This document shows, piece after piece, positions 1 through 35,091 of a stretch of DNA of 64,000 nt. A program made the translations under genes and the position numbers. Origin of the DNA: a virus; the IMG/VR virus record IMGVR_UViG_3300021091_000016, one strand, 5' to 3'. Numbering within the stretch: the first letter of the stretch is position 1; the number at the start of each line of letters is the position of its first letter. The notes under the pieces were generated by a model, which did not search any database, was not told the DNA's origin, and saw nothing but the letters and a program-made list of their open reading frames with translations.

Positions 1-680
1 ACATTAAATGTAGCATTACTTGGATTTGCTTTACCATTAACCCAAGCTGCATCGCTAATGTATTCTATATTAGCTTGATATTGAAATGGAGTATGTACTA
101 ATATAGTGTTAGAGATATAATACAATACACCATCAATACCAATCTCAATTAAATTTAAAAACTTATAATCACCAACAGAAGTCAAAGCTTCACTTGGTTT
201 CTTTAAATTTGTTAATTTATTACTATCTGCATCATCAATATTAATAAAAACAATTGGATTCTCTATTAAATTATATTGTGAGCCAATGTAAGCTCTTACA
301 TGATAATTCAAATCAATTTGATATTCATTTGGATTAATAGTCTCCCTTACAGTGACTTCTCCACTTAAAGACAATGGATTTAAATTACTTGCCGAACCTA
401 TTAATTGATTTAAATTAGATATATCATTGCCTCGAAGCTTAGCATTTAAAATAGCACTTGAAGCATCTTTTTCAGTAGCCCATTTTTTTCTAAAATCAAA
501 GGTTAAAGGAGTCCCACCTTCAACTATTTGTATTTCGCCTGAATCAGATAAACTAGAAAATGAACTACTAAGCTCATTTATACGTCTTTCAAAAAACGCA
601 AATATAGAATTGAATTTCTCTGCAGTTGGTCTTTCACCATCAATAAATTTAGATAACTTTATAAAGTTAATGTAACTCAT
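1..680 (-). CDS. Partial CDS (runs off left edge), probable distal tail/baseplate-associated structural protein
   Basis: ATG at 680 overlaps the upstream stop (TAATG). Reads MSYINFIKLSKFIDGERPTAEKFNSIF...ISNLNQLIGSASNLNPLSL and stays open towards the window edge. Missing from the ORF track because it is truncated. Confidence 0.75.
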   Translation of the reverse strand, partial: MSYINFIKLSKFIDGERPTAEKFNSIFAFFERRINELSSSFSSLSDSGEIQIVEGGTPLTFDFRKKWATEKDASSAILNAKLRGNDISNLNQLIGSASNLNPLSLSGEVTVRETINPNEYQIDLNYHVRAYIGSQYNLIENPIVFINIDDADSNKLTNLKKPSEALTSVGDYKFLNLIEIGIDGVLYYISNTILVHTPFQYQANIEYISDAAWVNGKANPSNATFN

Positions 681-2725
681 TATTTAACCCTCAAGCTTAA
701 TGTAGAAGTCATTTCTGGATTTATAGTAATATAATTTGCACCACCAAGTCCAGTAGCAATTACCTTGTCAGAATCTTTAATCTGCAATCCATTAACATAA
801 TTAGTAGATATATCAGCACCCTGCATATGTAATGGAAGCTTAATGGCAATAGATAGTTTTTTAGAAAATATCTTTGACCCTGTTGCTGGGTCAATACAAT
901 ACGCTTGAATAGATGCAACTCTAGAGTAGTATATCTTATATCTATAGATAAGAGAATCTGGATTACTTTGACTGTTCCAGACAGACAGAATAGGATTTGA
1001 AAACTTCAATTGATTGTTAGAATAAGATACTGGTCTTAGTGGCTTATATACATTAGTATCTTTGTAATAAAGTAATCGCTCTACCAATTCAGGCATGTAA
1101 TCTTCTGTTTGATTTCTTTGAGCAATGTAACTTGCTGGATCATCTATTCTCTCTATACCATTGTATCTCAATTGAGCAAATACAGTTATATCTTGAAAAT
1201 TAAAATTCAAGTCATTAATTGTAATATAATCATTACCTGTTTGAGTAGAATACAATCTCATAAAAGAGTCATTGTACGGCGCCGTAATTGACGTAGTAGC
1301 CTTACCATACAAATTTGTAATATTTGTTATAGAGTAGCTGTCTCCTTCAAATAACAACTTAATATCATCCTGTAATACCTTAAAGGTTACAGGTATATCT
1401 GGAACGTTATCTCCATTGTTGTTAAATGCATTAACGCTTAAGCTTACAAAGTCTATACCTAATGTAAGTTCATTTTTATTAGATTTTAAAAGCAACTCAG
1501 AGACATGCCTTTCATTACAGTTTATTTGAAGTATTCCATTTGACTTATTTAAATATCTTGGCTTTAAATTAATATTATCTGGAATTCTAAACGCATCATC
1601 TGATTCATAATCTGCTCTTACGCAGGTCTTATAGTTAATATAAAAGGTTTCGTCAACACTAGTATTTCTACCATTCAATCTAAATTTAAAGGTGTCAGTA
1701 GAATCATAGTCATCATAGTTTGCATCTGAATCTACAGGAGATAAATGATGTATGTAGTTATTTTTAATTCCATCGTATTTATATAATGTGTTTCCGATAA
1801 GAAGCATGCCTTGATTTGGAAACCCAGTTATATCATCGTACACAAAGATACTTTTCGAATTAGAATATCTTTCAAATTTATATAATTTGTCAGTATCCAC
1901 TGAGTGTCCAGATGTAATAATAATTCCTCTTTCAGGATTTACTACAAATAAAGGCTCAGAAGTAATATCGGAATCTATAAATGAATCTACTTTAGACCAT
2001 TGAGTAACTTGATTATTGTTAGAAGTAATAGAATATAGCCCTACATTTTCTATATTTAAAGGAAAATATTTACTATATATAATTCGTGAACTACCATTTC
2101 CTTTACCTTTTTTCTCTAACTTATTTTCTACTTTACTAGGACTGTTTAAATCTTCATACCAAGTATTACTATCATATAGCTTATTAATATTTAAGTTTGG
2201 ACTTACAAAATTAAAGGAATAATCATCATCAGGCAATACTCCAGATACATATTTATAAGTTATCCATGGAATATTATTATAAGCTTCATCCCTTCTAAAA
2301 ACATTTAAAGATAGGCTTTCTGTTTTTATCAGGCTAGTATCAAAAGCATTGTCTAAATCATTTAATAAACTGCAAGAGCTATGAGATGAGTATAACTGCT
2401 TAGATTTATCATATAATGTATATGCGCCAGTATTTACAATAGGTACAATACTAGTAGAATTTATATTCAAGCTTTGTAATTCACACCCATTAATTACTCC
2501 GCCATCCCAATGCTTGCTTGATGAACCATCAGATAAATTATAATTGTATCCGCCAATGCTAGTTTTTAAAGCTTGTCTTTGCTGAACATTTTCTTGTATA
2601 CGTACTCTATCTGGAGCCGCACCCAATATATCCTCTTCAATAGAGTATATACCAGTAAGAGGGAAATATTCTATTTCCTCTTTTACCTCAGCCTTTATTT
2701 TGTAAGTAGTCTTATAGTATGCCAT
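680..2725 (-). CDS. Virion structural protein (681 aa) with a probable Ig-like (Big_1-type) domain
   Basis: Beta-rich; LSVNAFNNNGDNVPDIPVTF...TNLYGKAT resembles Big_1/invasin Ig repeats; lies downstream of the baseplate genes. Confidence 0.55.
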   Translation of the reverse strand: MAYYKTTYKIKAEVKEEIEYFPLTGIYSIEEDILGAAPDRVRIQENVQQRQALKTSIGGYNYNLSDGSSSKHWDGGVINGCELQSLNINSTSIVPIVNTGAYTLYDKSKQLYSSHSSCSLLNDLDNAFDTSLIKTESLSLNVFRRDEAYNNIPWITYKYVSGVLPDDDYSFNFVSPNLNINKLYDSNTWYEDLNSPSKVENKLEKKGKGNGSSRIIYSKYFPLNIENVGLYSITSNNNQVTQWSKVDSFIDSDITSEPLFVVNPERGIIITSGHSVDTDKLYKFERYSNSKSIFVYDDITGFPNQGMLLIGNTLYKYDGIKNNYIHHLSPVDSDANYDDYDSTDTFKFRLNGRNTSVDETFYINYKTCVRADYESDDAFRIPDNINLKPRYLNKSNGILQINCNERHVSELLLKSNKNELTLGIDFVSLSVNAFNNNGDNVPDIPVTFKVLQDDIKLLFEGDSYSITNITNLYGKATTSITAPYNDSFMRLYSTQTGNDYITINDLNFNFQDITVFAQLRYNGIERIDDPASYIAQRNQTEDYMPELVERLLYYKDTNVYKPLRPVSYSNNQLKFSNPILSVWNSQSNPDSLIYRYKIYYSRVASIQAYCIDPATGSKIFSKKLSIAIKLPLHMQGADISTNYVNGLQIKDSDKVIATGLGGANYITINPEMTSTLSLRVK

Positions 2726-7601: not shown

Positions 7602-8116
7602 TTCAATAACTGCCAGGTTTCTCCATCACCTTCGGATGGAATTGCATTGTAAAACATTCTATCTTCTCTTCTTGAAGTAATACCCATAGTAAAGCCAAAG
7701 CTTACAGGTACGTTAACATCCTCATTTTCATATTGATTATTTTCATATGGTGGCGAGAAATAAACCTTACCTGCCATAATAGAAAAGTCATCTAACGAAC
7801 TTGTTTCAATAGTAACTGTTCTACCTATAATATTATCATCAGAACCATAGTTTTGTCTAAATTGTTCATAGCTCATGCTTCTGATTTCAATAGGCAAAGT
7901 AGATTTTATTTTTTCAATTCCGCAAATAATAAAAAGCCCACCATTGAAATCTCTACCTGGTAAAAATTTAGATGATTTTTTAGTGGCGCAAACAATATCT
8001 ATTATTAATGCAGAAACGTAAATCTTATTATCCTTTACGTTAGATGACTTATAGATATTAAGATTATTTAAATTTTTGTTAAAGGAAGACCTTAGTCCTT
8101 TTATTTTCTCGCTCAT
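7598..8116 (-). CDS. Hypothetical baseplate protein (172 aa), in the spike/gpV position
   Basis: TAATG coupling to the hub gene; function inferred from synteny only. Confidence 0.45.
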   Translation of the reverse strand: MSEKIKGLRSSFNKNLNNLNIYKSSNVKDNKIYVSALIIDIVCATKKSSKFLPGRDFNGGLFIICGIEKIKSTLPIEIRSMSYEQFRQNYGSDDNIIGRTVTIETSSLDDFSIMAGKVYFSPPYENNQYENEDVNVPVSFGFTMGITSRREDRMFYNAIPSEGDGETWQLLK

Positions 8117-17100: not shown

Positions 17101-17193
17101 TGTCTGGATTCGTTTTGTGCCATCTTCCTTAATAAGAAAATGCTGAGGTAAAATCCAAATATCAAAAATATCTACTAATTTATAATCGGACAT
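8116..17193 (-). CDS. Giant baseplate hub protein (~3025 aa) with Peptidase_M15-type Zn peptidase and several hydrophobic segments
   Basis: Start moved to MSDYK (ATG 17193, GAGGG upstream). SQHYFGSAVD (15001-15030), GLGIYG and FIHFD (~14824-14838) fit the M15/LAS H-x6-D...H-x-D pattern. Hub-like motifs: ADTAVIRLQN, LRPG..QLRAGYSSNP, YRGEIIILGNPQINPYD, VTHIFSMDTGFITEIKP. Confidence 0.75.
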   Translation of the reverse strand: MSDYKLVDIFDIWILPQHFLIKEDGTKRIQTSLKEMYKVYGCMVFSQMSVSQFRKGFESENWLNNWWKTIDPIQEQVFNEKNIRTAYETLDAFFKRIDPNCIIIFSDQTINVVFQYRATGFIELVNEGYLHAINIYNVSNIIRKFNEKYPSCLKLNKESNFYELNLTSSGSALLSILYDFFPVHVKELLKDYFDKNQNEFNDKYKNNDNYGSLWNQTLIPNIFLKRPFVYYVDNDFFMDSYSSHTDLNPYNKDYLNVKEYYDELRYRIITDKPVSPSTNYFYLKSKYAKNFSYIPNDKTHYFDDGLEHDKINYKNVVFYNVWSDSTLTLRQSTPALENIEVATNTTLDTGLHYLTSKDLEALSNLPKYIADNKYFEWTHKEYVSNVFYKTLVLQIDNEFEDNKSEESKSIDKGINVTNYDIGANAFVSTAAGINNIVAQIPILSQEYPTNQFLSSSEPTYQFNFISKNLAQETVGLPLIPKAIETLRALTNKYGREYKFIPDGSFILIDSFVTRLFGSFKEEYINHIPLDQENYKVDIKKPIAIESTEHRTLESSPGATAYTLRFSESNTYDPELFKEVLTNKTNTEANEEFMKKALDLILSNCDLADVSKDYVFKKNAFESNPGDYLSFTSKYFTADDFLRGIKLKKPELIKKLQELDLIKIVDHNLKIMAQHLDNLWDLLLSFDDIKKGEGYPLLVKSFSGIKVKSGLDFSDSETRDTFSQHYFGSAVDIIVPGYNVFFIAELIRRYMLKQSKGYGLGIYGDVFGSGMAWVRDMGDRTAAYSGFIHFDLNLNLTSNSYDAAFTQYCSEINKSEEQVKTITKKSKSSLTPEEKDIVDAIRNLKLNNKITDTDDFTNLKYNTTPRLWSADKGGEYAIKEYYSGEGIDVWKDKVPDEDYTYFKDYTLYDYVYKPNNSEISIELYLKQKLDNNTEIENNDDNDDENQERSEETVKFKTEIVDYKVKLEPESARLDKDFNPNYSGGNILTYNSWKERLEQVFGEKSSDLIGTSVSDTKYKDLTDAQRKAFQASYKNRSLNNDTEVSIFTNTVGNIINADPGYFKDVKNNKQLKDALDDYFNANGLVVYYDRDAQNLTDTFEFNKDLPLSFYIADPSSVGSFSENATGNYNNREIINLIKMACNLKDLASVFLIEPEIYLENKDDVQKEYEMIQKELYGISPIPSFFNNLTFGVCGSLLPTAEDIIQAQALFTKLKTDYTSFEGTSRGFYLFYNFINKSHPNYESTLINKFLTNNNEGFVAKVKSLLGGVVAAVAIYFASIPILFGAILIAINTALDGENLMTNNVAKGSILDEELPEVSTNLFRLLENISRGTFVTSLNTSDDVAFGANVYAKLDRRALFNRIYVERENNQEPIYSFNQLVLDLEDSDNHQNLVNSVIRQFVEQNPVMQDYQELASTISVNNALKSLINFEFLNSNTGEKEKSLFVGKDIFDPFIAKDWILFLISFRHTTQFFGELDDEEFDDCYVYNLNQKAFTRKKEDSSYIPAIESPRDSYLIERNLGESVEIINEKTMVANVPRVYRYENAEKRKNYFQKLKEQNKVRLAYLKNLLVQIVESLKQYDFFANNLSGFGTENQIEFDFATENAYPDIDLPLDPANPLSNINISPGFFYVKNFYSQSVLEETKAQATNILQKSYNFMSKLETGVYSGDAADFKNQSQDSITKGVIVDMKDSNLTVSVGEFNNQLAILGENSNLSDLIPKIKFDSELSNTDLDYTDISLITIQEILNPLQNNPEEYLQLHVDSVKERAATLENSFGSRAGFINETSVDTLNFFRDFDDRNNTSDETNKLLGLSNDSNISVNVLQEIADVSGNKLLENQFDISKAYPTFKFYLIEEDSIDSDNIFVFDDFYSFNAVKDFTVYKSRKLAADTAVIRLQNISGTLDGTKFAVIRDVDYEINDRIIEKEQFGQVPSSEPIQSVVLRPGVCCQLRAGYSSNPKDLTILLSGRIADVAWSNNGDMCEVTVQSFAVELETRKYGASDIDNGLDEKQFHSTHKLLGWCLFRNELKHFGRYKKQRLFQRGESKDVVITKETHIGAGDPSTSASMFEFFMSNWGYFVAAEVALCFVNFGALVGAGKEVAKVAVKEVAKEAVESTAATAGAEVVEAVAKEAVEDAAKVSGTTVLNIFSRNVFRAFGFGKEVVQNIPNWLGLGKLIRFVSGSGLNINASTKLINAELAGIEKAIVDEGFVSSQVLSQTDLILKIANQNVVDAAAQTSRLSNVLAYLGSFIGWQTQIVTRGSTLASRLWSINPTSLNVALEQYVAKGFTGSIENQATRIAIRNLVLTEITNASTNLWATGLRKAFQAVSLGAMRAVKLGVILPVLTYSVGLVWDTVSSVLSYFYNLVMGTFNPYSEALVLSPQDDALYAPHPDRYIVGSSGLASVQSDEAIKRLKRALAIGYLFYDPSKSTSTNEDILLNRTLLMDKRLNAKRGENVFKIKNSTIWEIFHEMSLRHPGWVYGARQYGQSLEYRMFFGLPNQRYFGKPLGNLEIKRLNSIIEATSKEDEDKIISLVSKETRAKIDILLTEEGTKSKRVDIMKTLLLEEWTRITKDRFIPFRNYHLISSKYNLVANNISGSNNDVINEIAILYLENNSGSMPQYTQRVIRAHDNMTEDQVHAKAVKYDNCKGFNAALRYGTAELVNAAKEMYRGEIIILGNPQINPYDICILEDEYSEMFGPIEVEAVTHIFSMDTGFITEIKPNALVTANEGLTYPVLNSVAMYDIGRELSKKADYNFRSLGDDQKKTLVTSIVDKWLEDNVKFMTMPWEKDPAVELGFTGAIKLQTGEINPDFKQVLIQRTLQELEKGNIILQSDILNPNANLGGFLTTENISATLASLGLGLALAKNRLGATPAVLVGLLGLGSSQAPTILDSQLSTPGSFLVNKLLTGDMLISQVTDGNLIQVYPLFKNNRPLVYGGYQKISLNKSVKNKLGNIFFEISEAMTMFNAISKEYSSRENIIYNRPTFVIEQTGNIAEALLPFRLPAGTVTGYLGSYTRDQVVDAASTGGRL

Positions 17194-17197
17194 TTTA

Positions 17198-18382
17198 TTA
17201 CTTACCCTCATTTTGTTTAGCTAATGCTTCTAATATTCTTTTGTTATTTTCAAATATCTTTTTATCTCTATCTTGACCAGTTAATTTTTCAGTATCATAC
17301 ATTACCTCTTGTCGATATCTTTTTAATACATCTGCTGGAAGGTTTATATGCTCATACTCATTATAATAGAATTTAGTAGTTCTATCATATTGCAACATAG
17401 ACTCTATGATATATTTTTTTATATCATATAATATAAATGGTGAATGCAATCCAACTACTATTTTGTTAAAGCCAGAGATAATACCCTTATCTAAGAAGTC
17501 TTTCTTTAGTAAGCTAAGTGGCCCATCATCAGTAGCAGCTCCTCTAGTAATATTTATTCCAAAATTTTCTGATAAGGATTTGATTTGAAGCCAATTATAA
17601 TATCTTACATATGCTGCTGATTTATAAGGTAAGCTTTCTTGAATTCCCAAATCAGCATATTTTTTAAACTTTTTAAAAATAGATAAGTTTGAATCAACTT
17701 GAGTTTTTATTACTGGTGTTTTTTCTGGATCAGAATATTCGTACTCCAACAATAAAGGCTCGTAAGAAAGCTTATTATTAATTACCTTTGTAGCAAAAAC
17801 AGGAAATGTCAATGATGTATATCTATTATTTCCTTGAGATGTATACAGGGTTTCTAAATCTGGAATGTATTTTAAATCCAAGGAATATGGTATATAATTA
17901 AAAAGCTTTAAATCTAATTCCATTTCGAATGATGAATTTGCTGGTTGATAAGAGCTTATTCTTAAACCAGTTACAGTACAATGTAAATTTCTATTATCAT
18001 ATCCGCCAATAGATTCTTTAATATACCTGTTATCTATACATACAAAAGGATTATTTCTAACCTGTATTATTAAACGATGTAGCATTAAAATCATTTCAGA
18101 TGTAAATAAAAGCTTTAATTGAATTAATATTTGGCCGCGACCAGAGGCTAACTTAGTAGTAGTCTTTGTTCTTAAGGTTTTATATCCCCAATTAAAATTA
18201 TCCTTTTGAATATTGATTGATAAAGGAGCTATAGGTAAAAATATGTCATTGATTACAAAGTTACATTTTTCTTGCAATTTACCTAAACTATCTACAACAT
18301 TTTTATAATTAAAATCATATTCAGGATTTCCTTCTGTTATATCAATAAAATCTCTATCAACAATTTCTTTAGTGACGCGCAT
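17198..18382 (-). CDS. Putative baseplate/tube-initiator protein (394 aa)
   Basis: N-terminal INDIFLPIAPLSINI...LRT...GRGQILIQLKLLF looks like a tube-fold hub domain; lies just upstream of the hub gene. Confidence 0.45.
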   Translation of the reverse strand: MRVTKEIVDRDFIDITEGNPEYDFNYKNVVDSLGKLQEKCNFVINDIFLPIAPLSINIQKDNFNWGYKTLRTKTTTKLASGRGQILIQLKLLFTSEMILMLHRLIIQVRNNPFVCIDNRYIKESIGGYDNRNLHCTVTGLRISSYQPANSSFEMELDLKLFNYIPYSLDLKYIPDLETLYTSQGNNRYTSLTFPVFATKVINNKLSYEPLLLEYEYSDPEKTPVIKTQVDSNLSIFKKFKKYADLGIQESLPYKSAAYVRYYNWLQIKSLSENFGINITRGAATDDGPLSLLKKDFLDKGIISGFNKIVVGLHSPFILYDIKKYIIESMLQYDRTTKFYYNEYEHINLPADVLKRYRQEVMYDTEKLTGQDRDKKIFENNKRILEALAKQNEGK

Positions 18383-18385
18383 TAA

Positions 18386-20023
18386 TTATTCTCCCATAAG
18401 CTTGTCAATATAACCACCAGTAATAGGCATTCTGTTATCATTCATCATCATACTTGAAGTTCCTCCTGTTTGCAAAACCATATTAGAAATATAATTAGCT
18501 TCGTATTCAGACGAAGCCGTACCTTGAACTAAATAGCTTTGTTGTTTAATCATAGGTGTTTGTCCAGGAGTAATTACTCTGTTAACCATATCCTTGTAAA
18601 ATGGTCTTTGCATTGCTTCTGCGCTCATTAAAGTATCTCTATTACCAGTAGGTACTAATTGTTTATTTCTAATGCGCTCAGAAACTCTACTGTCTGTAAA
18701 TATCTCCTCAGGCATAAGCTCCTCAGTATCAGTATTTGAGCTTAAGAAATAAGATGCTCCTAACACAGCGGCAACACCTGCACTAAATCTTAAATTACTT
18801 ACACGAGCTAAATCCTCAGCTACTGCAGACATAACAGATGGTCTTTTTGCACCCATTAAATCTTCAAATATTGCTTGTTGTTCCTCAGAGCTAAAGCCCG
18901 CATTTGCAACTACAGATTCTAGTACGCTGGTATTTCTTACCAGCTTCATATAATTCTCTTGAGTTATTTTATCTGTTTTAGAGGATGATAATAGTTTTGC
19001 TAATATGTTATCAGACGAATATGTGTGAAGTCCTCTTTTACGTACCTGATTCACAATATTGTCTAAACCTGCAAATACATCCTCTAAACTAAATCTCATA
19101 CCTCCATTACTCATCAAATCTGCTTCATATTGTGCAGCTAATTCTGGAGGTAAATTGCTAACCTTTACGCTTTTAGCAATTAACTCCTCGGTAAACATAG
19201 TGTCTTTAAAGATTTGCTCTCTTAAGAAATCTTTAAATGCAGAGCTGTCACCTGTTCTGAATGCAGTATTCAAATGCTCTGTAAATAATTCACCAATATT
19301 AGTAGCTAATGGTAGTGATTTAGATTTAATAACAATTGATTCTTGTGCAGCAGAAATCAATGTTTGAGCTGCTAAGTCGGTTTTTCGAATAGCTTGTATA
19401 TCGGCGCCAGATTCCATAATAGAATAAGCCGCACCAACCGCTGCTGTTTTAACAGCAACGTCAACAGAACCAACACTACCCTTAAGAATACGTTCCTTTG
19501 TAGATTCAGAGGTTAATAAGGCCTCGTAGCTCATATCCTCAACACCCATGCGTTTTGCTACAGTTTTCATTGCATCCTTTGCTATTTCCATATTAATAAC
19601 AAACATTGCACCAGTCTTTTGCATTTCCTTAACGTTTTTACTTATTTGACTTCTAAAGGCTGCAGCACTTTTCTCATTGTTCATGATCGCTTGATAAATA
19701 TCACCATCAAAGTCACCCACCCCAGCTCTAGACAAGTCAGTACGTACTTTAACCTTATAATTACCAAATGTACTGCCTTGCTTCTGAGATTCAAATTCTA
19801 CTTCTGTTTCAAATTCAGGAATCAATAACTGACCTTGACCTAAACCAACTGCAGCAGAATAATTACTCTTATATACATGTAGTAATTCATCTAGTATTTC
19901 TGATGGTTGCAAAAACTTAGCCTCCTCAGGGTTTATTCCAGAGTTGATGGCTTTTTGTTTTTCTAACTCTAATTCCTTTAAGGCATTTATGTGTTCTTGC
20001 TTATAACCCTCATAGGTCTCCAT
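18386..20023 (-). CDS. RNA polymerase beta'-like catalytic part (545 aa as called); probably the C-terminal part of a readthrough or split gene
   Basis: GQGQLLIP...DLSRAGVGDFDGDIY (DFDGD at 19700-19714) matches beta' GKAIQLHP...YNADFDGD. No SD before ATG 20023, and the frame stays open upstream to the TGA at 20195-20197. Confidence 0.75.
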   Translation of the reverse strand: METYEGYKQEHINALKELELEKQKAINSGINPEEAKFLQPSEILDELLHVYKSNYSAAVGLGQGQLLIPEFETEVEFESQKQGSTFGNYKVKVRTDLSRAGVGDFDGDIYQAIMNNEKSAAAFRSQISKNVKEMQKTGAMFVINMEIAKDAMKTVAKRMGVEDMSYEALLTSESTKERILKGSVGSVDVAVKTAAVGAAYSIMESGADIQAIRKTDLAAQTLISAAQESIVIKSKSLPLATNIGELFTEHLNTAFRTGDSSAFKDFLREQIFKDTMFTEELIAKSVKVSNLPPELAAQYEADLMSNGGMRFSLEDVFAGLDNIVNQVRKRGLHTYSSDNILAKLLSSSKTDKITQENYMKLVRNTSVLESVVANAGFSSEEQQAIFEDLMGAKRPSVMSAVAEDLARVSNLRFSAGVAAVLGASYFLSSNTDTEELMPEEIFTDSRVSERIRNKQLVPTGNRDTLMSAEAMQRPFYKDMVNRVITPGQTPMIKQQSYLVQGTASSEYEANYISNMVLQTGGTSSMMMNDNRMPITGGYIDKLMGE

Positions 20024-20197
20024 CTTTTGATTTAAGTGCGCTTTTAAAGCACTGTCATCATTTAAATGATCAATACTATTAATTGAATCTAAATCATCTA
20101 AAACATATTGATTTGTTTTATAGGTTATAGGCTTGTCATCTTTATCAAGTACCTCTACTGCCTGTGATTTAGCTTGATCGTAATAAGTAAGAGGTCA
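20024..20197 (-). other. In-frame TGA plus 57 sense codons joining two ORFs (candidate recoding site)
   Basis: GAA ATT GAA TGA CCT CTT ACT TAT...AAT CAA AAG ATG GAG. The 171 nt translate without a stop to PLTYYDQAKSQAVEVLDKDDKPITYKTNQYVLDDLDSINSIDHLNDDSALKAHLNQK. Confidence 0.9.
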
Positions 20198-23100
20198 TTC
20201 AATTTCTTGCATCGTAGGTACTCTTCCCAATGTCATTCTTGGCGAATTTACCTTATAGGCTTCAGAACCATCAGCAGGAGTAACATCTAAAGGTTGCTCA
20301 GATAAAGTTCTATTAGTTAAATCTTGGACCTTTTGATTGTGTTCTTGTACTCTTTGTTTGCTCTCTGTAATTTTTTGTTTAGTCTTTTCAATTGATTTAT
20401 CTTTTCTATCTTTAGCAGCTTCTAAGCGCATCTTTTTTACTTCATTTAATCTTTTCTTTATTTCACTTACAGAAGTATATGGCGCGTCTCCTTGAGTTTC
20501 TGGTAAATCAATGGTTTTATATTTTACCTTACCTTCAGCATTAGTACTCTCTACAATCTTATTACCTTCAGCATCATATTCATATTGCTTGAATCTAAAG
20601 TTCTTAATTTTTTCTGCTCGGCGTTCCTCAAGCTTTTGTTTTTGTTTATTTAAATCATCTCTAAAAATAGAATATGCTTCTGGACTTAACTCTTTTTTTA
20701 ATTGATTTAAATTAGGCAATCCTTCTGCTGTTAACTTAAGAGTTGGATCTTTAGCTTGAAATCTTTCATAAACACTTCTTACTTCTTCAAGTGCATTTAT
20801 TTTGTTTTGTAAATCTCCAGGTATTATTTGAGTATCAAATATTTCATACATTCCTTTTTTTGCAAGATAGCCTAATGTATTACTTAATATCTTTGATGCT
20901 TGATCAGCCTCTTTTTTATCAGTTAAAGACAATATAACCTTTGCTCTATCTGTGTCTGGAACGCTTTTTTCGTTTACTCCATTAGTTAACTTCCAAACCT
21001 CTGTCTCATCGGCTACCATATGAGTTAAAGATTTTTTTAATATTTCATTTGCTTGTTCTATAAAAGCTTTTTTTACAGCTTTACGTTCCTCATTAGTTGT
21101 TGCTTTACTTAAATCTGAAATAGTTTTGCTAATTAAAGCTTGTGTTTCTGAATTTTTTTGAAATGAATCATTTAACGTTTCATTTAGTTCTACAATTGTA
21201 GAGTTAAATGCAGTCTCATTTCCTAACTTTAATCTAGTATCTCTTTTAGTTTGATACTCGCTTACCATGTCTAGCTGTTCATCGGTTAAGGGCAACTCTT
21301 TATCGAAATAATGTACTTGCTCTTGTTCAGCACGTTTAGCTAAAATTATATTTAAAATATTTTGATTATAGTCTATTGACTCTAAATTACTACTAATGTG
21401 CTTTTGAAGTCTGTTTAAACTCTTATCTTTTCTTTCAATCATCTTATGTATTGGATTGATAGACCTATATTTTTTTACTTCTTTCTCCGTAAAAAATCCT
21501 TCCTTTTCCACATCTTCGATAAACTCTGTTACCATATAAGCTTCTCTAAAAAGACTATCCTTTCTATCAGTAGGCATAGTATTATAAATCGCGCGATATT
21601 CTTCTAAAAAAGCTTCTCTTTGTTCTACTGCATCAAATCTTAAATTTAAAAATTTTGTATCTTCTGCTTTGCCATGTATATCTTCCTTAATTCCAAATTC
21701 TTTAACTAAATCTTCAAATTCTTTTATTGGTTCATAGCTTACATATTTTTTAACTACTGTTTGACCATCATTCGTTTTTTCAAAATAAGGGATAGTGTGT
21801 TTAACTTGAAAAAGATGTTCTGTATTTAATCTTAGAGTTTTATCCTCTAAGTCTATCATTTCTTTTAGGTATTGATTTTTATTTTGACTCGCTCTTATCA
21901 TCGATTCAAATGTATTTTTTGCATCCTTAAAACTCAATCTAGTGTTATATTCAAAAGCATCTGCGTACCTTACATCTTCTAATGCAACTTGATTCTTTTC
22001 AAAATGCTGTCTAGTTAATTTATCTACAAACCCTTCAGTAGTTTTAAATTTTTTAGTTGCGGGGTCATAAGATATTCTTTGCCTTCTTTCATGTCTAAGC
22101 TTAGCAGCCTTTAATCTTTCTATTTCTCTAGCAAAGCTATCCTTTCTGTATTCGGGATTTATAGACATATCCTCTATGTATTTTATACCTGCTGAATGTT
22201 TAGGTAAATATTTGTCTTTTGTAAGCGCAGCCTTTTCTGCTTTCAAATCAGCTAATCTTTGCTGTCTTAACTGTAGATTTAAATTTAATTTTGATTGCTT
22301 CTGTAATTGCAAATTTAAATATTCAAATTGTTTTTTCACTCCTCCAATTCTTGTTTGTATATTCTTTCCAGTATTAACATTTGTACCTGTCTTTATATTA
22401 TCCATTATTGCTTCTATTGCTTGGATATCAGCTTGTTTCTTTGCAATTTTATCTGCAATAGTTGTAGTAACTGCAATTCCTGCACCAGCAGATTTTAAAC
22501 CTCCTAATCTTGATAATTGGAATAGCTTGTTTAAATTACTGAAATTTAAAAAGTTACTATTTGGATTAGCAGCTTCATTTTCTAAATGTGCTACTATACC
22601 TTTATCAACGTTCGAAGCAAAAGCGCCCCCACTACCTATAAAGCTACGTAAAGCTGCCTGTAGCTGTTGACCATATTTAGAATACTCAACTACATTATTT
22701 AAACTTGCTGATTTATTTAAATTATCAGTATCGATTCTATATAAATCGATACCAAAGGATATATGTCCAAAACCTAATTGAGGATTACGAAAGCTAATAC
22801 CAGAAACACCCTTTGGAGAAAAAGCCTTTTCATCATAAATTATATTTCCGGCCGAATCTTTAAAGAATTGACCTTCTTCCATACCGAACAAAAATCTTTT
22901 CATAGTATCGAATTTTTCATAGCCTTCCTCTACAGGAGCCTCCTTCATTTGACTATACGCATACATAAAGCCTTGAATATCCATAAACTCGGCATATCCT
23001 TTAGATTCAACCATAGCTTTGTTCAATTTGCCTATAATCTTTTCTTGTAATGCAGGTTCATTTGCAAGTATTGTAACCTGGTCTTGGCCAGTAACACCAA

Positions 23101-26100
23101 GTCTTAAACCTTTACCTTCTAAGGTAGCACTACCAGTAATTCTACCTGACAAAATCTGTCTAGTTAAACCACCTGTTATTTCTTGCAACTCCTTTATATA
23201 GTAAATAGATTTTTTAATTAAATTCTTTTGTTCCGTATCTACATCAGCAACACTTGCTTCACGTATGTTAGCAAAAATATCATTAATACGACGATATAGG
23301 GAGGATTCCATTTGTAAATCCTCCCCTTCCTTTCTAAGCTCTACACCAGAAATAGAATCTAGAGCATCTGATAAAGGTACTACGATTTGACTTTTTCCCT
23401 CGCCTATTTGTTCTATAAAGCTTTGATATGCAGCAACATTTAATTGTTCATTACCTTCTACACCTCTAGTAAATAAATCCTTAATATCAAAAACCATTGC
23501 TATAGCATCACCGGTTTGTTGCTTTAAATTTCTTAAATAAATAGCTAATGTATCTGCTGATTCTTGACCTACGTTAACATCTAAAAATTGTTTAACTAAG
23601 TTTTTATCTGCCTTAAAAAACTTACCTTGAGAAATATAATCCTCAATAAGCATATTCATTGCTTCTGGTTTTTGATTTGGATTCATAGAATAAGATGATA
23701 ATAATAACGGCGAAATACCTAGAACCTTCTCTCCAATGCCAACCTGTCTAGTAAATAAATCAGACATTACATTTGCAGCATCCTCAGCAGACATATTAAA
23801 GCTTGACATCAAATTAGCAGATAAAAAGTTAGCAAAACGTGGTTCGACTCTAGCTAGCTTTGATTTATTTTGAGAGGACTGAGTACCTGCGTATGCACTA
23901 AATGCACCAACAAACATACCTTTATTTGCAGCTAATAGTGCTTCTTGTTGTTGCGCACTACTCATTCTACTATTAGCTAAAAGCTCTTGAAACAAAGGAG
24001 TAGTCTTGCCACCCATCTTAGTTCCATAATCCTCTAAAGCTTGCGTAGGTACCATAACCGTACCAATTAACTCTGGAGTTAATTGAGCTAATTGACCAGC
24101 TCCTGGAAGTTGCGTATTCATTTTATCCTGTAGGAACCCAAATACTGCGGTTCCGAATTGTCTAAAATATTTCTTAGTGTGCTCTGCAACCTTAGTATCT
24201 AGCTTAGCAGGCTCTATTCCTGCATCCTTCATACTTCTTGCAATATAATTATCAAACTCATCTGCATCGAAACCTAAATGTAAAACACTTCCACGCATCA
24301 AAGAAGCTAGAAACAATGGCGCTTTGTTTACAACGTCCATACCTGCAACCATGCTTGTTTCAAAATTAATATTAAAGCCCTTTAAAGCTACATTCTTTAT
24401 AAAATTCTCACCTTCTGTTGCACTTCCCATAGCTTGAGACAAAACCTTAGTAAAACCTTCCTCCTTGAGCAAAGACTCTTCTCCATAAAAAACGCCCTTA
24501 ATTGGTTCTGAAAATATCTTACTTTGCTCTTTGGAAATGATAGAGCCTGTCAAATAATAACGACCTTCTTTTTCATTCATTGCTACATTATGTCTTTGTA
24601 ATCGCAATCCAAACATGCCTTTTTGCTTTGAAATTTTAACAGGCTCATTGTTATTAAAACCTAAAACTAAATTACCTTCCTTATCTCCATAAGTCTTATA
24701 GAATTTCTCTAACTCTTCGCCAAAAAGCTCAACCACATCACCTTTATTTAATTTATCGAATTGCTCTGATTGATAAATTGATAGATTAGGCATATTGGTT
24801 AATACCTGAAAGCTTTTCTTTATAGGTGCTTCAACAATACTGCTACCGCCTGTATATTGCATAGCATCTGCTAAACCAAATAACTGACCCTTTTTATTCT
24901 TAGCATTAAAATTAATAATAACACTAGTGTTTGCTCCTACCATTGGTAAGTCTTTAAATGCTGGGTCAATATTTAAGAGCTGTCCACCAGTAGTAGCTAG
25001 CATTGGAATATTTCCTCTACCTATTTTTTTACTTCTTAAATAATTATCTAACTCTGCCGCTGACTGAAATTGAGGTGCATCAGGTCCTAAATATCCTAGC
25101 AAAGCTTCTGGCTTTGCGAATTGCTGTGCTGGACGTGCAGAACCTGGAAGTATAGCCTGGTCTTTTACACCACCAATAGCTCTTACTAAACCTACAGGAG
25201 TAACATCGCTAGGATTCAAACCTACAATAGCCATTCTTTGCTCAATAGTTTTACCAGCTATTTCATGTCTTTTTATACCTGCTTGACCTTGTGCAGGACC
25301 AAATAAACCAGACTCTAAACCTACCATCTTATTTAAATCTAAAGGAAATGCTTCACCTGCAGTCTTCTTTGTATGAAAAAAATATGCAGTATTTGCAATC
25401 ATATCCATGCCATGTCTAGCTTGAATACCAGTATATCCTAAATTCTTTTTCAAATTAGGACTAACATCCTGAGTAAGCCCAGTTAATGTTTCCATAAAAA
25501 CATTTCTCTCTGCTTGATTCATTTGAAATAAATCCTCTACAGAATGCATTTTAAATAAATCAATTGCAAAATCCTCAAAGCTAGATTTTGTACTTAAATC
25601 AGTTAATTTCTTTCTAACTGCTCGAGCTCTTTGACTTAGATTACTTTCAGGTATAGCTTTTAAGCTTTCAAAATCATCTACATTAAAATAATATTTATGC
25701 GCAAGCTTTGCATTTCCATAATCTGCACTCAATCTAACCATCTTACCATTCTCGGTATCTGCTCCTAATAAGGGAATTATAATTGGAGATGCAGATGCTC
25801 CACGTTTTTTAGATGATATTTTTGCATAAAAACCAGATTTTCCATCTCCTTCATCAATCACATCAAAAGTAATGTTAAATTTTTGATCTACAGTTGAATT
25901 ATTACCTTGTCTTAAATGTTGTTCTATTTTTTTAAAACGATTAATTACTGTATTTTTAGTTCGTCCATTATCATTGTAATTTTTATACAAATCGTCATTT
26001 GATAAATCACTGTAATTTATATTCCTTCTATTAACAGAATTAACTTGAGTGCTAACCTGTTCGAACATAGAAAATGGATTTGCTAAATTTGTTTTTCCTG

Positions 26101-26749
26101 TTCTAGAATTTGTAGCTAATAAAGATGCAATTTCTTTATTCTTTTGATGTAAATTTAAAAATCTAGCTTCTAAGGATTGGTCTCCAGAAATACTCTCTAC
26201 AAAATTAGATATTTCAGAACTCATACTATTTCCCGCTCGGCTATCAATTTCTATAGCCGAGCGTATTCTCTCAATTAAAGTAGCTCTTTCGTTTTCACCT
26301 ATATTTAATGAAGGGTCATTTATCATATCTAACAAAGTAGATAAATGAGATATACGCTCGCTATCTCTACTTTGCATAATTCTATTAAAATTATCTATTG
26401 TTTCTTGTTTTGAAGCGCCAAATAATTCTGAACGATTTTTATTTAAAGATTGTGTATCTAAAGATTTTTTTATTTCTGATTCTTCTAAAGCCTTATTCCT
26501 TATTTGCTTACCAATGGTATTCATTGGATGCATTTTTTCTTGCGCCGGATTATTAATAAAATTAGTTAGATTAGATACACCTGGCATATTACCAGAAAGA
26601 TTTGGATTTTGAGATTTAAAAGCATAGTATCCAGAAGCACCAGTGATAGCTAGACCAGCCATAGTACTAATAGCATTCCAAGCACTTCTCTTATAAGATT
26701 CTTTTTCTCGTTCACTTTTGGTAATAGTGTCTATTGTAGGCTTTATCAT
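20195..26749 (-). CDS. Giant protein (2184 aa): beta-like and N-terminal beta'-like parts of a putative single-chain RNA polymerase plus a long charged helical region
   Basis: SKIFSEPIKGV (K744/K751; cf. beta GDK1065..K1073GV), RQILSGRITGS (R1197; cf. beta' RQNLLGKRVDYS), FRNPQL (R1321; cf. beta' NR425APTL). N-terminal hydrophobic helix AISTMAGLAITGASGYYAF. Confidence 0.6.
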   Translation of the reverse strand: MIKPTIDTITKSEREKESYKRSAWNAISTMAGLAITGASGYYAFKSQNPNLSGNMPGVSNLTNFINNPAQEKMHPMNTIGKQIRNKALEESEIKKSLDTQSLNKNRSELFGASKQETIDNFNRIMQSRDSERISHLSTLLDMINDPSLNIGENERATLIERIRSAIEIDSRAGNSMSSEISNFVESISGDQSLEARFLNLHQKNKEIASLLATNSRTGKTNLANPFSMFEQVSTQVNSVNRRNINYSDLSNDDLYKNYNDNGRTKNTVINRFKKIEQHLRQGNNSTVDQKFNITFDVIDEGDGKSGFYAKISSKKRGASASPIIIPLLGADTENGKMVRLSADYGNAKLAHKYYFNVDDFESLKAIPESNLSQRARAVRKKLTDLSTKSSFEDFAIDLFKMHSVEDLFQMNQAERNVFMETLTGLTQDVSPNLKKNLGYTGIQARHGMDMIANTAYFFHTKKTAGEAFPLDLNKMVGLESGLFGPAQGQAGIKRHEIAGKTIEQRMAIVGLNPSDVTPVGLVRAIGGVKDQAILPGSARPAQQFAKPEALLGYLGPDAPQFQSAAELDNYLRSKKIGRGNIPMLATTGGQLLNIDPAFKDLPMVGANTSVIINFNAKNKKGQLFGLADAMQYTGGSSIVEAPIKKSFQVLTNMPNLSIYQSEQFDKLNKGDVVELFGEELEKFYKTYGDKEGNLVLGFNNNEPVKISKQKGMFGLRLQRHNVAMNEKEGRYYLTGSIISKEQSKIFSEPIKGVFYGEESLLKEEGFTKVLSQAMGSATEGENFIKNVALKGFNINFETSMVAGMDVVNKAPLFLASLMRGSVLHLGFDADEFDNYIARSMKDAGIEPAKLDTKVAEHTKKYFRQFGTAVFGFLQDKMNTQLPGAGQLAQLTPELIGTVMVPTQALEDYGTKMGGKTTPLFQELLANSRMSSAQQQEALLAANKGMFVGAFSAYAGTQSSQNKSKLARVEPRFANFLSANLMSSFNMSAEDAANVMSDLFTRQVGIGEKVLGISPLLLSSYSMNPNQKPEAMNMLIEDYISQGKFFKADKNLVKQFLDVNVGQESADTLAIYLRNLKQQTGDAIAMVFDIKDLFTRGVEGNEQLNVAAYQSFIEQIGEGKSQIVVPLSDALDSISGVELRKEGEDLQMESSLYRRINDIFANIREASVADVDTEQKNLIKKSIYYIKELQEITGGLTRQILSGRITGSATLEGKGLRLGVTGQDQVTILANEPALQEKIIGKLNKAMVESKGYAEFMDIQGFMYAYSQMKEAPVEEGYEKFDTMKRFLFGMEEGQFFKDSAGNIIYDEKAFSPKGVSGISFRNPQLGFGHISFGIDLYRIDTDNLNKSASLNNVVEYSKYGQQLQAALRSFIGSGGAFASNVDKGIVAHLENEAANPNSNFLNFSNLNKLFQLSRLGGLKSAGAGIAVTTTIADKIAKKQADIQAIEAIMDNIKTGTNVNTGKNIQTRIGGVKKQFEYLNLQLQKQSKLNLNLQLRQQRLADLKAEKAALTKDKYLPKHSAGIKYIEDMSINPEYRKDSFAREIERLKAAKLRHERRQRISYDPATKKFKTTEGFVDKLTRQHFEKNQVALEDVRYADAFEYNTRLSFKDAKNTFESMIRASQNKNQYLKEMIDLEDKTLRLNTEHLFQVKHTIPYFEKTNDGQTVVKKYVSYEPIKEFEDLVKEFGIKEDIHGKAEDTKFLNLRFDAVEQREAFLEEYRAIYNTMPTDRKDSLFREAYMVTEFIEDVEKEGFFTEKEVKKYRSINPIHKMIERKDKSLNRLQKHISSNLESIDYNQNILNIILAKRAEQEQVHYFDKELPLTDEQLDMVSEYQTKRDTRLKLGNETAFNSTIVELNETLNDSFQKNSETQALISKTISDLSKATTNEERKAVKKAFIEQANEILKKSLTHMVADETEVWKLTNGVNEKSVPDTDRAKVILSLTDKKEADQASKILSNTLGYLAKKGMYEIFDTQIIPGDLQNKINALEEVRSVYERFQAKDPTLKLTAEGLPNLNQLKKELSPEAYSIFRDDLNKQKQKLEERRAEKIKNFRFKQYEYDAEGNKIVESTNAEGKVKYKTIDLPETQGDAPYTSVSEIKKRLNEVKKMRLEAAKDRKDKSIEKTKQKITESKQRVQEHNQKVQDLTNRTLSEQPLDVTPADGSEAYKVNSPRMTLGRVPTMQEIE

Positions 26750-33912: not shown

Positions 33913-33939
33913 ATTTACTCTCTTTATAAAAATGTATTA

Positions 33940-35079: not shown

Positions 35080-35091
35080 TTATATTCCTTA

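What the first reader, a model, noticed from the sequence alone, without database searches (positions are those of the whole stretch)
19850..22740. ~1000-residue charged, helical insertion inside the catalytic barrel
Seen: R of RNP (1321) and the first catalytic D (2346) are 1025 aa apart, against 35 aa in E. coli beta' (R425 to D460). The intervening sequence is K/E/Q-rich with heptad-like runs (LQLQKQSKLNLNLQLRQQRLADLKAEK; KQKITESKQRVQEHNQKVQDL) and contains the UGA. No intein N-terminal Cys or HN-C/S/T ends were seen. Inference: the insert may act as a tape/tether for ejection or as an autoinhibitory or cleavable spacer, and it is a site where a chain break would be tolerated.
Basis: partly seen in the sequence, partly recalled or inferred. 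Interest (0 to 1): 0.7.

Follow-up and report, generated by a model that had tools for sequence, protein, structure and literature searches.

The report
Giant helical insert splitting polymerase barrel
A phage tail-module gene encodes a very divergent single-chain RNA polymerase of the cellular type, and about 900-1000 fast-evolving, mostly helical residues are looped out from the middle of its catalytic barrel; the stop codon inside this loop is a one-base variant, not a designed signal.

Summary
Read through its single TGA, the minus-strand frame 18386-26749 gives a 2787-aa protein. RNP lies at residue 1321 and DFDGD at 2346.

Both motifs belong to one beta'-type double-psi barrel:
- In an AlphaFold model of residues 1185-2384, the two flanks together superimpose on Rpb1 residues 343-521, the active-site barrel (Z 8.0, rmsd 3.0 A, 112 residues).
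- About 950 residues loop out between the flanks, and the two ends of the loop pair as an antiparallel helical stalk.

Across 102 family representatives the R-to-D distance runs from 110 to 1493 aa. R is nearly invariant, and P and D-x-D-x-D are invariant. The large inserts sit in one derived clade.

The insert evolves several times faster than the core: 63-72% against 91-97% identity to the nearest relative. It has no internal repeats and no intein or mobile-element signature. In one relative it has captured a helix-hairpin-helix DNA-binding domain.

Insert length does not follow the length of the neighbouring tape-measure-like protein, so the "tape" idea is not supported.

The UGA is not a conserved feature. 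A protein from other assemblies is identical at all 2786 other positions and has Ser there, so the parsimonious change is TCA to TGA.

This scan has already reported the same split barrel on other DNA, in relatives of about 3220 aa.

The parts
18386..26749 (-). Whole polymerase gene: one 2787-codon frame with a single in-frame TGA. Gene callers split it into a 2184-aa and a 545-aa ORF.
   Evidence: Uninterrupted homologs of 2787, 2819, 2893, 3222 and 3225 aa.
22730..23164 (-). N-terminal half of the beta'-type double-psi barrel (aa 1196-1340). It holds the 'SGRITGS' strand, a dock-like excursion and the RNP strand pair.
   Evidence: AlphaFold pLDDT 75-93 with strands at model residues 23-32, 131-138 and 146-154. 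It aligns together with the C-half to Rpb1 343-521.
22781..22789 (-). R-N-P motif (aa 1321-1323). R is the family counterpart of the conserved Arg of the beta'/Rpb1 'R-x-P-x-L-H' strand.
   Evidence: R is conserved in 101 of 102 representatives and P in all.
22493..22729 (-). Conserved short helices just after the RNP strand pair (aa 1341-1419). They are part of the small helical subdomain that all family members carry at this site.
   Evidence: Invariant positions among close homologs continue to about aa 1416. The equivalent helices 338-386 are present in the short relative P0076.
19880..22492 (-). Hypervariable, charged, mostly alpha-helical insert (aa 1420-2290, about 870 aa).
   Evidence: Long helices with low to moderate pLDDT. 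Identity to the nearest relative is 63-72% against 91-97% in the core, with many indels. No internal repeats, and homology is detectable only with the closest relatives. No Pfam domain.
22388..22459 (-). Ascending stalk helix of the insert (aa 1431-1454).
   Evidence: Model helix 247-270 pairs with helix 1050-1085. Helical-hairpin structures align across model residues 244..1088 (4abm_A: Z 9.2, rmsd 2.2 A, 72 residues).
19943..20050 (-). Descending stalk helix of the insert (aa 2234-2269).
20195..20197 (-). In-frame TGA (codon 2185), followed by C. It is a single-base variant of a Ser codon.
   Evidence: Sibling P0136 is identical at 2786 of 2786 other residues and has Ser here. The codon lies in the model segment 963-1035, where pLDDT is below 50.
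20024..20194 (-). 57 sense codons between the TGA and the first ATG of the 545-aa ORF: open, in frame and without a start codon.
   Evidence: The chance of 58 stop-free codons at this base composition is about 0.008 (my estimate). ATG 20023 has no SD-like motif, whereas 24 of 34 genes have one.
19670..19879 (-). C-terminal half of the barrel (aa 2291-2360): a helix, the 'GLGQGQLLIPEF' hairpin, the 'YKVKVR' strand, the DFDGD loop and the following strand.
   Evidence: pLDDT 75-89 with strands at model residues 1123-1135, 1147-1152 and 1164-1172. Aligned with the N-half to Rpb1 343-521.
19700..19714 (-). DFDGD metal-binding motif (aa 2346-2350).
   Evidence: The three Asp are invariant in alignments of 87 and 37 sequences.
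18386..19669 (-). C-terminal module after the barrel (aa 2361-2787). Its length is nearly constant across the family (about 415-455 aa after the first Asp).
   Evidence: In the relative P0076 the equivalent region helps align residues 43-690 to RNAP largest subunits out to chain residues of about 1250-1700.

Best explanation
The region encodes a lineage-specific insertion domain inside the beta'-type double-psi beta-barrel of a giant single-chain two-barrel RNA polymerase. The gene lies in the tail/ejection-protein module of a large myovirus-like phage (contig about 152 kb). All members of this unannotated family carry a small helical subdomain between the strand pair that follows R-x-P and the hairpin that leads into DxDxD, giving an R-to-D distance of about 110-150 aa. 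In the window's clade a loop of that subdomain has expanded to 700-1500 aa. The insert leaves and re-enters the barrel through an antiparallel two-helix stalk, so the barrel closes normally in three dimensions and every catalytic residue is kept (shown by modelling). It is a hot spot of rapid change in sequence and length and can take up domains, for example a helix-hairpin-helix domain in one relative (shown). Its function is inferred, at about 35-40%: a peripheral helical arm on a permissive surface loop that serves packing or docking of the polymerase in the virion or ejection apparatus, or contact with partners or DNA, rather than catalysis. The in-frame UGA is most simply a TCA-to-TGA change in this contig: an assembly or sequencing error, or a very recent nonsense allele. 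It is not a recoding signal.
For: - The motifs and their spacing are as reported.
- Window model of aa 1185-2384: both flanks are confident, and together they align to Rpb1 343-521 (3hoy_A: Z 8.0, rmsd 3.0 A, 112 residues, model range 13..1197), archaeal A' 326-502 and cyanobacterial beta' 352-507.
- The ends of the insert form a helical hairpin.
- Short relative P0076 model (pLDDT 79.9, pTM 0.74). All top 50 Foldseek hits are RNAP beta' chains. In an unbiased search of 48,161 chains the top 12 are RNAP largest subunits (Z 8.7, 369 residues). Isolated 85-86-residue DPBB domains align in full to model residues 198..436, a range that holds both R310 and D425.
- Family survey: 127 homologs. The R-to-D distance is 110-1493 aa in 102 representatives, with P and the three Asp invariant and R conserved in all but one.
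- In the tree, the large inserts fall in a derived clade with repeated changes of size.
- The insert diverges faster than the core, has no repeats and no Pfam domain, and the insert in L002 has HHH_3 at E 4e-9.
- UGA: the sibling has Ser and is identical elsewhere. TGA is a normal stop in 9 other genes. There is no tRNA or Rfam hit, no unusual RNA structure after the stop (z -1.04) and no SD before ATG 20023.
Against: - The structural evidence is predicted, not experimental. Z scores of 8-9 lie near the tool's stated background for large models, so the case rests on the consistency of the hits and the exact ranges rather than on score alone.
- The window model has low confidence over much of the insert, so its internal architecture is uncertain.
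- The second (beta-like) barrel in the N-terminal 1100 residues was not modelled here.
- No data bear directly on what the insert does. Neutral tolerance of a bloated loop is not excluded.
- The DNA of the sibling could not be fetched, so TCA is inferred from parsimony. Whether the TGA is an error or a real allele cannot be told without reads.
Confidence: 0.75

Rival explanations
1. The insert is a ruler or tether: a tape-measure-like segment whose length is matched to the tail. It holds the polymerase in the tail lumen for ejection.
For: - The gene lies in the tail module next to a tape-measure-like giant protein.
- The insert is long, helical and charged.
- A precedent exists for a polymerase physically joined to a tape measure: P23-45 gp96 (PMC10770324).
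- Weak, non-significant structural echoes of ejection and core proteins were seen.
Against: - About two thirds of family representatives have only 110-150 aa here.
- Insert length does not follow the length of the tape-measure-like protein in three genomes: 694/3492, 1025/3031, 1426/3469.
- In the model the insert folds back on itself through a stalk rather than running as one extended rod.
- A separate candidate tape measure with hydrophobic segments and a cell-wall hydrolase region is present.
Confidence: 0.08
2. The insert is a regulatory spacer. It keeps the two barrel halves apart or inactive in the virion (autoinhibition), or it is cut or interrupted on purpose, with the UGA acting as a read-through switch that sets the ratio of truncated to full-length enzyme.
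For: - The context is UGA-C, and 57 open codons follow without a start.
- The stop lies in a flexible loop.
- Some family representatives of 482-483 aa begin just before the DxDGD hairpin at the same position, which hints at natural splits.
- Self-inhibited pre-packaging states are known for phi14:2 gp66 (bioRxiv 10.1101/2020.03.07.982082).
Against: - A protein identical at every other residue has Ser at the codon, and all other homologs are uninterrupted.
- There is no stimulatory RNA structure and no suppressor tRNA in the window.
- TGA terminates 9 other genes.
- The short proteins could be cut gene calls, and their context could not be fetched.
- Nothing tested here shows inhibition or cleavage.
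Confidence: 0.1
3. The insert is selectively neutral bloat: a permissive surface loop that has accumulated low-complexity helical sequence by slippage and drift, with no function of its own.
For: - The insert diverges fast and has many indels.
- No domain is detectable in the window's insert.
- Confidence of the prediction is low.
- Lengths form a continuum.
Against: - About 870 codons are kept open in a 30% G+C genome in every member of the clade.
- There are no internal repeats that would point to slippage.
- Heptad-like order exceeds that of shuffled sequence.
- The ends form a defined stalk.
- A relative has acquired a folded DNA-binding domain here.
- Large inserts persist across a deep clade.
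Confidence: 0.2
4. The insert is a mobile element (intein, or an intron-borne or homing-endonuclease ORF) that is removed before the enzyme works.
For: The location is at a highly conserved catalytic site, which is typical of inteins.
Against: - There is no Cys/Ser/Thr at the upstream junction and no His-Asn at the downstream one (sequence).
- No Hint, LAGLIDADG, HNH or GIY-YIG hits were found, and no Rfam intron.
- The frame is continuous, and the sequence is homologous and colinear with relatives at both edges.
- Insert lengths form a continuum from 110 aa upward.
Confidence: 0.02

Closest known systems
Thermus phage P23-45 gp96, virion RNA polymerase fused to the tail tape measure (PDB 8H2M; Chaban et al. 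2024, PMC10770324)
   Same: Both are single-chain two-barrel RNAPs with DFDGD, encoded in the tail module next to (there: fused to) a tape-measure protein that has hydrophobic segments and a cell-wall hydrolase. Both are presumed to be ejected with the DNA. There is a structural match to the family relative P0076 (Z 6.4, 219 residues, model 196..597).
   Different: Here the polymerase is a separate gene, with a 394-aa gene between it and the tape-measure-like gene. The protein is far larger (2787 aa, against a catalytic core of about 800 aa). No sequence similarity is detectable. gp96 has no giant insert in its DxDxD barrel: that paper mentions only 'several lineage-specific insertions' in DPBB-A.
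Sequence-insertion domains of bacterial RNAP (for example beta' SI3 in the trigger loop, beta SI1/SI2)
   Same: These are lineage-specific, variable-length modules looped out of conserved catalytic elements of a two-barrel RNAP without destroying them, and they leave and re-enter at one point (own knowledge).
   Different: The site differs: here it is inside the DxDxD barrel itself, between the R-x-P strand pair and the Asp loop. The fold differs: long helices and a coiled stalk instead of sandwich-barrel hybrid repeats. The size reaches 1493 aa and the turnover is much faster.
phi14:2 gp66, virion RNAP of crAss-like phages (PDB 6VR4), and Neurospora QDE-1
   Same: They are giant or single-chain two-barrel RNAPs with beta-like then beta'-like order. 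gp66 is virion-packaged, and most of the chain is of unknown fold. QDE-1 matched weakly (Z 6.0).
   Different: There is no profile-sequence similarity to gp66 (hhalign probability 0.2). In gp66 the connector ends at 1238 and DFDID lies at 1361, so it has no large insert in that barrel. The phage here is a large myovirus-like virus whose terminase is nearest to Moorella MTATph1, Acinetobacter ME3 and Bacillus 0305phi8-36, not a crassvirus.
Largest subunits of cellular and large-virus RNAPs (Rpb1 / A' / beta')
   Same: These are the best structural matches. The window's two barrel halves align to Rpb1 343-521. P0076 residues 43-690 align to Pol I, II and III, archaeal, vaccinia and bacterial largest subunits. 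The R-x-P and DxDxD motifs are shared.
   Different: The chain here is single, identity is about 10-14%, and there are no Pfam hits. The R-to-D spacing is 110-1493 aa instead of about 35.

Membership tests
Two-barrel (cellular-type) RNA polymerases | DxDxD metal-binding loop in the beta'-type barrel | tested here: met
   DFDGD lies at aa 2346-2350. The three Asp are invariant in alignments of 87 and 37 sequences.
Two-barrel (cellular-type) RNA polymerases | Double-psi beta-barrel fold around that loop, including the R-x-P strand | tested here: met
   This rests on predicted structures only. The window model aligns to Rpb1 343-521 with both flanks (Z 8.0, rmsd 3.0 A, 112 residues). The relative P0076 aligns in full to isolated DPBB domains over residues 198..436 (Z 6.2, rmsd 2.8 A, 85 of 86 residues).
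Two-barrel (cellular-type) RNA polymerases | Second (beta-type) barrel with conserved basic residues facing the first | not tested
   Conserved motifs exist in the N-terminal 1100 residues, such as 'NAKNKKGQ' at about aa 615 and 'KIFSEPIKG' at about aa 744.
Two-barrel (cellular-type) RNA polymerases | Bridge helix and trigger loop after the DxDxD barrel | tested here: inconclusive
   Alignments of P0076 to largest subunits run from model residue 43 to 690 and to chain residues of about 1250-1700. This would include those elements, but only the ranges are reported, not residue pairs.
Two-barrel (cellular-type) RNA polymerases | Template-dependent RNA synthesis | not testable with these tools
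   This needs the purified protein and a primer-extension or run-off assay.
crAss-like virion RNAP (phi14:2 gp66 family) | Detectable sequence or profile similarity to gp66 orthologs | tested here: not met
   hhalign of the family profile A5 against gp66 gave probability 0.2. No PHROG or PDB sequence hits were found.
Tape-measure-fused virion RNAP (P23-45 gp96 type) | Polymerase and tape measure in one polypeptide | tested here: not met
   The polymerase gene ends at 18386. A 394-aa gene and then the 3031-aa tape-measure-like gene follow as separate ORFs. In L002 the next ORF is also separate.
Tape-measure-fused virion RNAP (P23-45 gp96 type) | Presence in the virion and ejection into the host | not testable with these tools
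   This is inferred only from the gene's position in the tail module.
Inteins | Hint fold with N-terminal Cys/Ser/Thr, C-terminal His-Asn and a downstream nucleophile | tested here: not met
   There are no such junction residues and no Hint or endonuclease Pfam hits in the insert.
Programmed stop-codon read-through or recoding | Stop codon conserved in relatives, with a stimulatory context | tested here: not met
   There is Ser at the codon in an otherwise identical protein and in the 92%-identical relative, and other residues in more distant ones. The downstream RNA fold has z -1.04. No tRNA was found.

The most novel reading that the evidence does not exclude
The insert is a functional 'split-barrel latch'. 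In the virion the helical arm is extended or bound to neighbouring ejection proteins, so the two halves of the catalytic barrel are held apart. This would keep the enzyme inactive and thin enough to pass the tail channel. After ejection the stalk zips up, the barrel closes and transcription starts. The arm's rapid evolution and domain capture would then reflect adaptation to tail geometry or to host envelope and defence factors.
Probability: 0.12. Interest if true: 0.85.

Novelty: new variant of a known kind. Interest (0 to 1): 0.55.

Why it matters
The double-psi barrel that holds the catalytic aspartates is the most conserved element of all cellular-type RNA polymerases. This family shows that the barrel can tolerate, and over evolutionary time keep, an excursion of up to about 1500 residues between two of its strands. 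That marks a permissive site for engineering, such as tags, split enzymes or sensor domains. It also provides a natural series (110 to 1493 aa) for studying how insertion domains are born and grow.

The result also adds to the evidence that large contractile-tailed phages carry unannotated injected polymerases beside their tape measures. That bears on how their early genes are expressed.

Practically, the single TGA makes gene callers report two unrelated 'hypothetical proteins'. Annotation pipelines will therefore miss the polymerase.

Tried and rejected
- **Sequence searches of the whole protein and of the family profile.** Searches against PDB, Pfam and PHROGs gave nothing useful. tblastn of the C-terminal ORF and of P0076 against cultured phages gave no match.
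- **hhalign of the family profile against phi14:2 gp66.** No similarity was found.
- **Foldseek and the wide VIA search on the 1200-residue window model.** The results were swamped by helical hairpins. Only the second-look alignment showed the barrel.
- **Fetching the DNA of the Ser-bearing sibling and of the 92% relative.** A protein scan and an exact-pattern scan of the metagenome contigs, and a pattern scan of the viral contigs, found nothing. The sibling's codon is therefore inferred, not read.
- **Genomic context of possible split forms.** A scan with P0051 (chosen among P0038, P0051 and P0028) found no locus. The C-terminal alignment was too divergent to scan with. A search for short N-terminal partners found only one 1361-aa protein, which ends at the start of the insert on a 15-kb contig and is probably cut.
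- **Protein Atlas on the upstream 1675-aa protein.** There was no usable hit.
- **Family profile against the Acinetobacter phage ME3 genome.** There was no match, although a predicted ME3 protein is structurally similar.
- **Readings rejected.**
  - Intein or mobile element.
  - TGA=Trp recoding of the genome: other genes end in TGA.
  - A real gene on the plus strand at 22176-22670: it is a Cys/Phe-rich mirror of the Lys/Glu-rich frame.

Full report
**What is there.**
All genes of the window lie on the minus strand and are tightly packed. The frame 18386-26749 is open for 2787 codons except for one TGA at 20195-20197. Gene calling by table 11 therefore yields a 2184-aa ORF (20195-26749) and a 545-aa ORF (18386-20023).

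Between them the sequence is enriched in K/E/Q/R/D and depleted in G/P: the charged fraction is 0.35-0.44 in residues 1500-2300 against about 0.21-0.36 elsewhere. On a crude heptad score of my own, 46% of the insert passes the threshold. That compares with 5-6% of the core and 27% of shuffled insert sequence.

**Context.**
The window holds a terminase large subunit (54825-57026), portal (47207-48958), major head protein (41981-43315) and a sheath-like protein (35837-38359). Three paralogous small proteins follow at 33478-35817. After them come a 1675-aa protein, the gene studied here, a 394-aa gene and a 3031-aa protein.

The 3031-aa protein has four hydrophobic segments and PHROG hits to cell-wall hydrolase regions. 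These are features typical of tape-measure proteins. The terminase is nearest to those of large myoviruses: Moorella MTATph1, Acinetobacter ME3 and Bacillus 0305phi8-36, at 25-30% identity. The contig that holds the window is about 152 kb. This is not a crass-like phage.

**Is it one barrel? Sequence evidence.**
No sequence method recognises the protein. A full HMMER scan with the C-terminal 601 residues found 127 relatives. Most are 1650-3265 aa long, with a nearly constant 415-455 aa after the first Asp.

I built HMMs for the 'SGR...RNP' region and for the DFDGD region and mapped both in 102 representatives. R is conserved in 101 (K in one). P and the three Asp are invariant. The R-to-D distance is 110-151 aa in 68 representatives, 171-429 in 18 and 684-1493 in 16. 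The window has 1025. So the RNP is a homologous, constrained motif, and this site is the only part of the protein whose length varies greatly.

**Is it one barrel? Structural evidence.**
- *Short relative.* A short family member that holds both motifs was modelled with a 45-sequence alignment: P0076, 860 aa, R310, D425. The model has pLDDT 79.9 and pTM 0.74.
  - All top 50 Foldseek hits are RNAP beta' chains, with weak E-values of 0.03-0.3.
  - In an unbiased alignment to 48,161 chains the top 12 are largest subunits of RNAPs: Pol I, II, III and IV, archaeal, vaccinia, mycobacterial, plastid, phiKZ, AR9 and ASFV. The best has Z 8.7 over 369 residues.
  - P23-45 gp96 scores Z 6.4 and QDE-1 Z 6.0.
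  - Isolated 85-86-residue double-psi barrels (designed DPBBs, VAT-N, Cdc48-N) align in full to model residues 198..436. That range contains the R-x-P strands (304-326), four short helices (338-386) and the Asp loop.
- *The window's own protein.* Residues 1185-2384 were modelled with a 37-sequence alignment, with TGA read as Ser.
  - Both flanks are confident: pLDDT 75-93 for model residues 20-270 and 75-89 for 1045-1200.
  - The order of strands is the same as in P0076.
  - In the second-look alignment, Pol II Rpb1 residues 343-521 superimpose on model range 13..1197 (3hoy_A: Z 8.0, rmsd 3.0 A, 112 residues, 13% identity). So do archaeal A' 326-502 and cyanobacterial beta' 352-507.
  - A contiguous 179-residue active-site barrel of Rpb1 is thus matched by two pieces of this protein that lie about 950 residues apart in sequence.
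- All of this rests on predicted models. The Z scores are near the tool's stated background, so the argument is the consistency of the hits and the exact ranges.

**Anatomy of the insert.**
Conservation among the four closest homologs runs to about residue 1416 and resumes at about 2293. I therefore place the hypervariable insert at residues 1420-2290 (window 19880-22492).

The model predicts long helices, up to 55 residues, two small beta elements and several low-confidence linkers. The best structural matches of the whole model are helical hairpins aligned across model residues 244..1088 (4abm_A: Z 9.2, rmsd 2.2 A, 72 residues). So the first long helix (aa 1431-1454) pairs antiparallel with a helix near the end of the insert (aa 2234-2269). 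The insert leaves and returns through a two-helix stalk.

There are no internal repeats. Similarity to other inserts is detectable only for the closest relatives, and there mostly at the edges. Pfam finds nothing in the window's insert. The 645-aa insert of a relative (L002, IMG/VR contig of 161.8 kb) holds an HHH_3 helix-hairpin-helix domain above the curated cut-off (E 4e-9).

**Evolution.**
Against the nearest relative (P0003, 2819 aa) identity is 91-97% in the core, 80% at residues 1341-1460 and 63-72% at residues 1461-2290, with indels. Against the 40%-identical relatives the insert drops to 20-30% identity, with hundreds of gap positions.

I built a FastTree of the barrel flanks plus the C-terminal module from 95 representatives and rooted it at the midpoint.
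- Distances of 110-150 aa lie in the basal groups.
- Distances of 171-282 aa lie in an intermediate grade.
- Distances of 144-1493 aa lie in the derived clade.
- The window's subclade has 1025-1493 aa.
- A 144-aa member is nested among members with 357-694 aa.

So size has changed repeatedly, in both directions or independently.

**The UGA.**
The 90% cluster of the 2184-aa product also holds a 2787-aa protein from other assemblies (JGI and Logan, two contigs). It is identical to the window's read-through product at all 2786 other residues and has Ser at 2185. The 92% relative also has Ser there, and more distant relatives have other residues. TCA is the only Ser codon one change away from TGA.

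Other points bear on the two-gene and read-through readings:
- The genome uses TGA as a real stop in 9 other genes, TAA in 25 and never TAG.
- The window has no tRNA gene and no Rfam match.
- The RNA after the stop folds no better than shuffles (z -1.04).
- The 57 codons after the stop hold no start codon, and ATG 20023 lacks the SD-like motif that 24 of 34 genes have.
- The stop falls in a model segment with pLDDT below 50.

My reading is that this is a sequencing or assembly error or a very recent nonsense allele, not a recoding device.

**Function.**
What is shown: the insert does not remove or displace any catalytic motif, its ends are paired, it is kept open and large throughout a clade, and it evolves fast and can host a DNA-binding domain.

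What is inferred: it is an accessory arm on a permissive loop of the barrel.

The tape-measure idea fares badly:
- Most relatives have only about 110-150 aa at the site.
- A separate tape-measure-like protein exists.
- Its homologs are 3469 aa and 3492 aa in the genomes whose inserts are 1426 and 694 aa, against 3031 aa with 1025 here. This is three points only.

Autoinhibition, cleavage or a tolerated chain break remain possible. Three unrelated representatives of 482-483 aa start at the same place, 46-50 aa before DxDGD. However, they may be cut gene calls, and I could not fetch their context.

I give about 35-40% to a role in virion packing, docking or partner/DNA contact. I give about 20% to neutral bloat, about 10% to a regulatory spacer and under 10% to a ruler.

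**Comparison with what is known.**
- The nearest concept is the lineage-specific sequence insertions of bacterial RNAP (own knowledge). Here the site is inside the DxDxD barrel, the fold is helical and the size is far larger.
- The nearest system is the tape-measure-fused virion RNAP of Thermus phage P23-45 (PMC10770324). It shares the tail-module setting and matches structurally at Z 6.4, but it is fused to the tape measure and has no such insert.
- In phi14:2 gp66 the connector ends at residue 1238 and DFDID lies at 1361, so it has no large insert in that barrel. Profile comparison shows no similarity.
- I found no description of this family or of the insert in two full-text searches.
- Earlier notes of this scan report the same split barrel in relatives of about 3220 aa on other DNA. 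I measured those relatives myself at 1426-1430 aa. The feature is therefore not new to the scan, although it appears to be unpublished.

Noticed in passing
window 8116-17211 (-): This 3031-aa protein has four hydrophobic segments (aa about 1260-1297, 2077 and 2327) and PHROG hits to endolysin-type regions at aa 2563-2740. It looks like the tape measure or tail lysin. Its homologs are 3469 aa and 3492 aa in two related IMG/VR contigs.
   Followed up: partly
whole window: None of 35 ORFs ends in TAG (25 end in TAA, 10 in TGA). Most TGA stops sit in ATGA-type overlaps.
   Followed up: no
L002:8467-10401 (+), IMGVR_UViG_3300020385_000005: The 645-aa insert at the same barrel site of a 2420-aa relative contains a helix-hairpin-helix domain (Pfam HHH_3, E 4e-9, above the cut-off), so the site can take up folded DNA-binding modules.
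   Followed up: partly
proteins P0038, P0051 (482 aa), P0028 (483 aa): Three family representatives, each under 50% identical to the others, begin at the same point 46-50 aa before DxDGD (two with Met, one with a Val-coded start) and run to the family C-terminus. They may be natural splits of the gene at the insertion site, or cut gene calls. Their context could not be fetched.
   Followed up: partly
window 33478-35817 (-): Three adjacent paralogous proteins (144, 379 and 241 aa) all hit phrog_9206, which is annotated 'major head protein', although they lie just downstream of the sheath-like gene. They are more likely tube or tail proteins with a misleading family label.
   Followed up: no
model of P0076 against BFVD: Predicted structures of uncharacterised proteins of Acinetobacter phage vB_AbaM_ME3 (E 2e-7) and Microcystis phage MaMV-DC (E 3e-3) resemble the beta'-like half of this family. 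No sequence match was found in the ME3 genome. Cultured jumbo myoviruses may therefore carry very distant versions of this polymerase.
   Followed up: partly
window 22176-22670 (+): This 164-aa antisense ORF inside the insert is Cys/Phe/Leu-rich. It is the mirror of the Lys/Glu-rich coding frame and not a gene.
   Followed up: yes
protein P0137: A relative that is 73% identical ends at residue 1361, right where the hypervariable insert begins, on a 15-kb contig. Assemblies may tend to break at the insert, or this may be another interrupted copy.
   Followed up: partly
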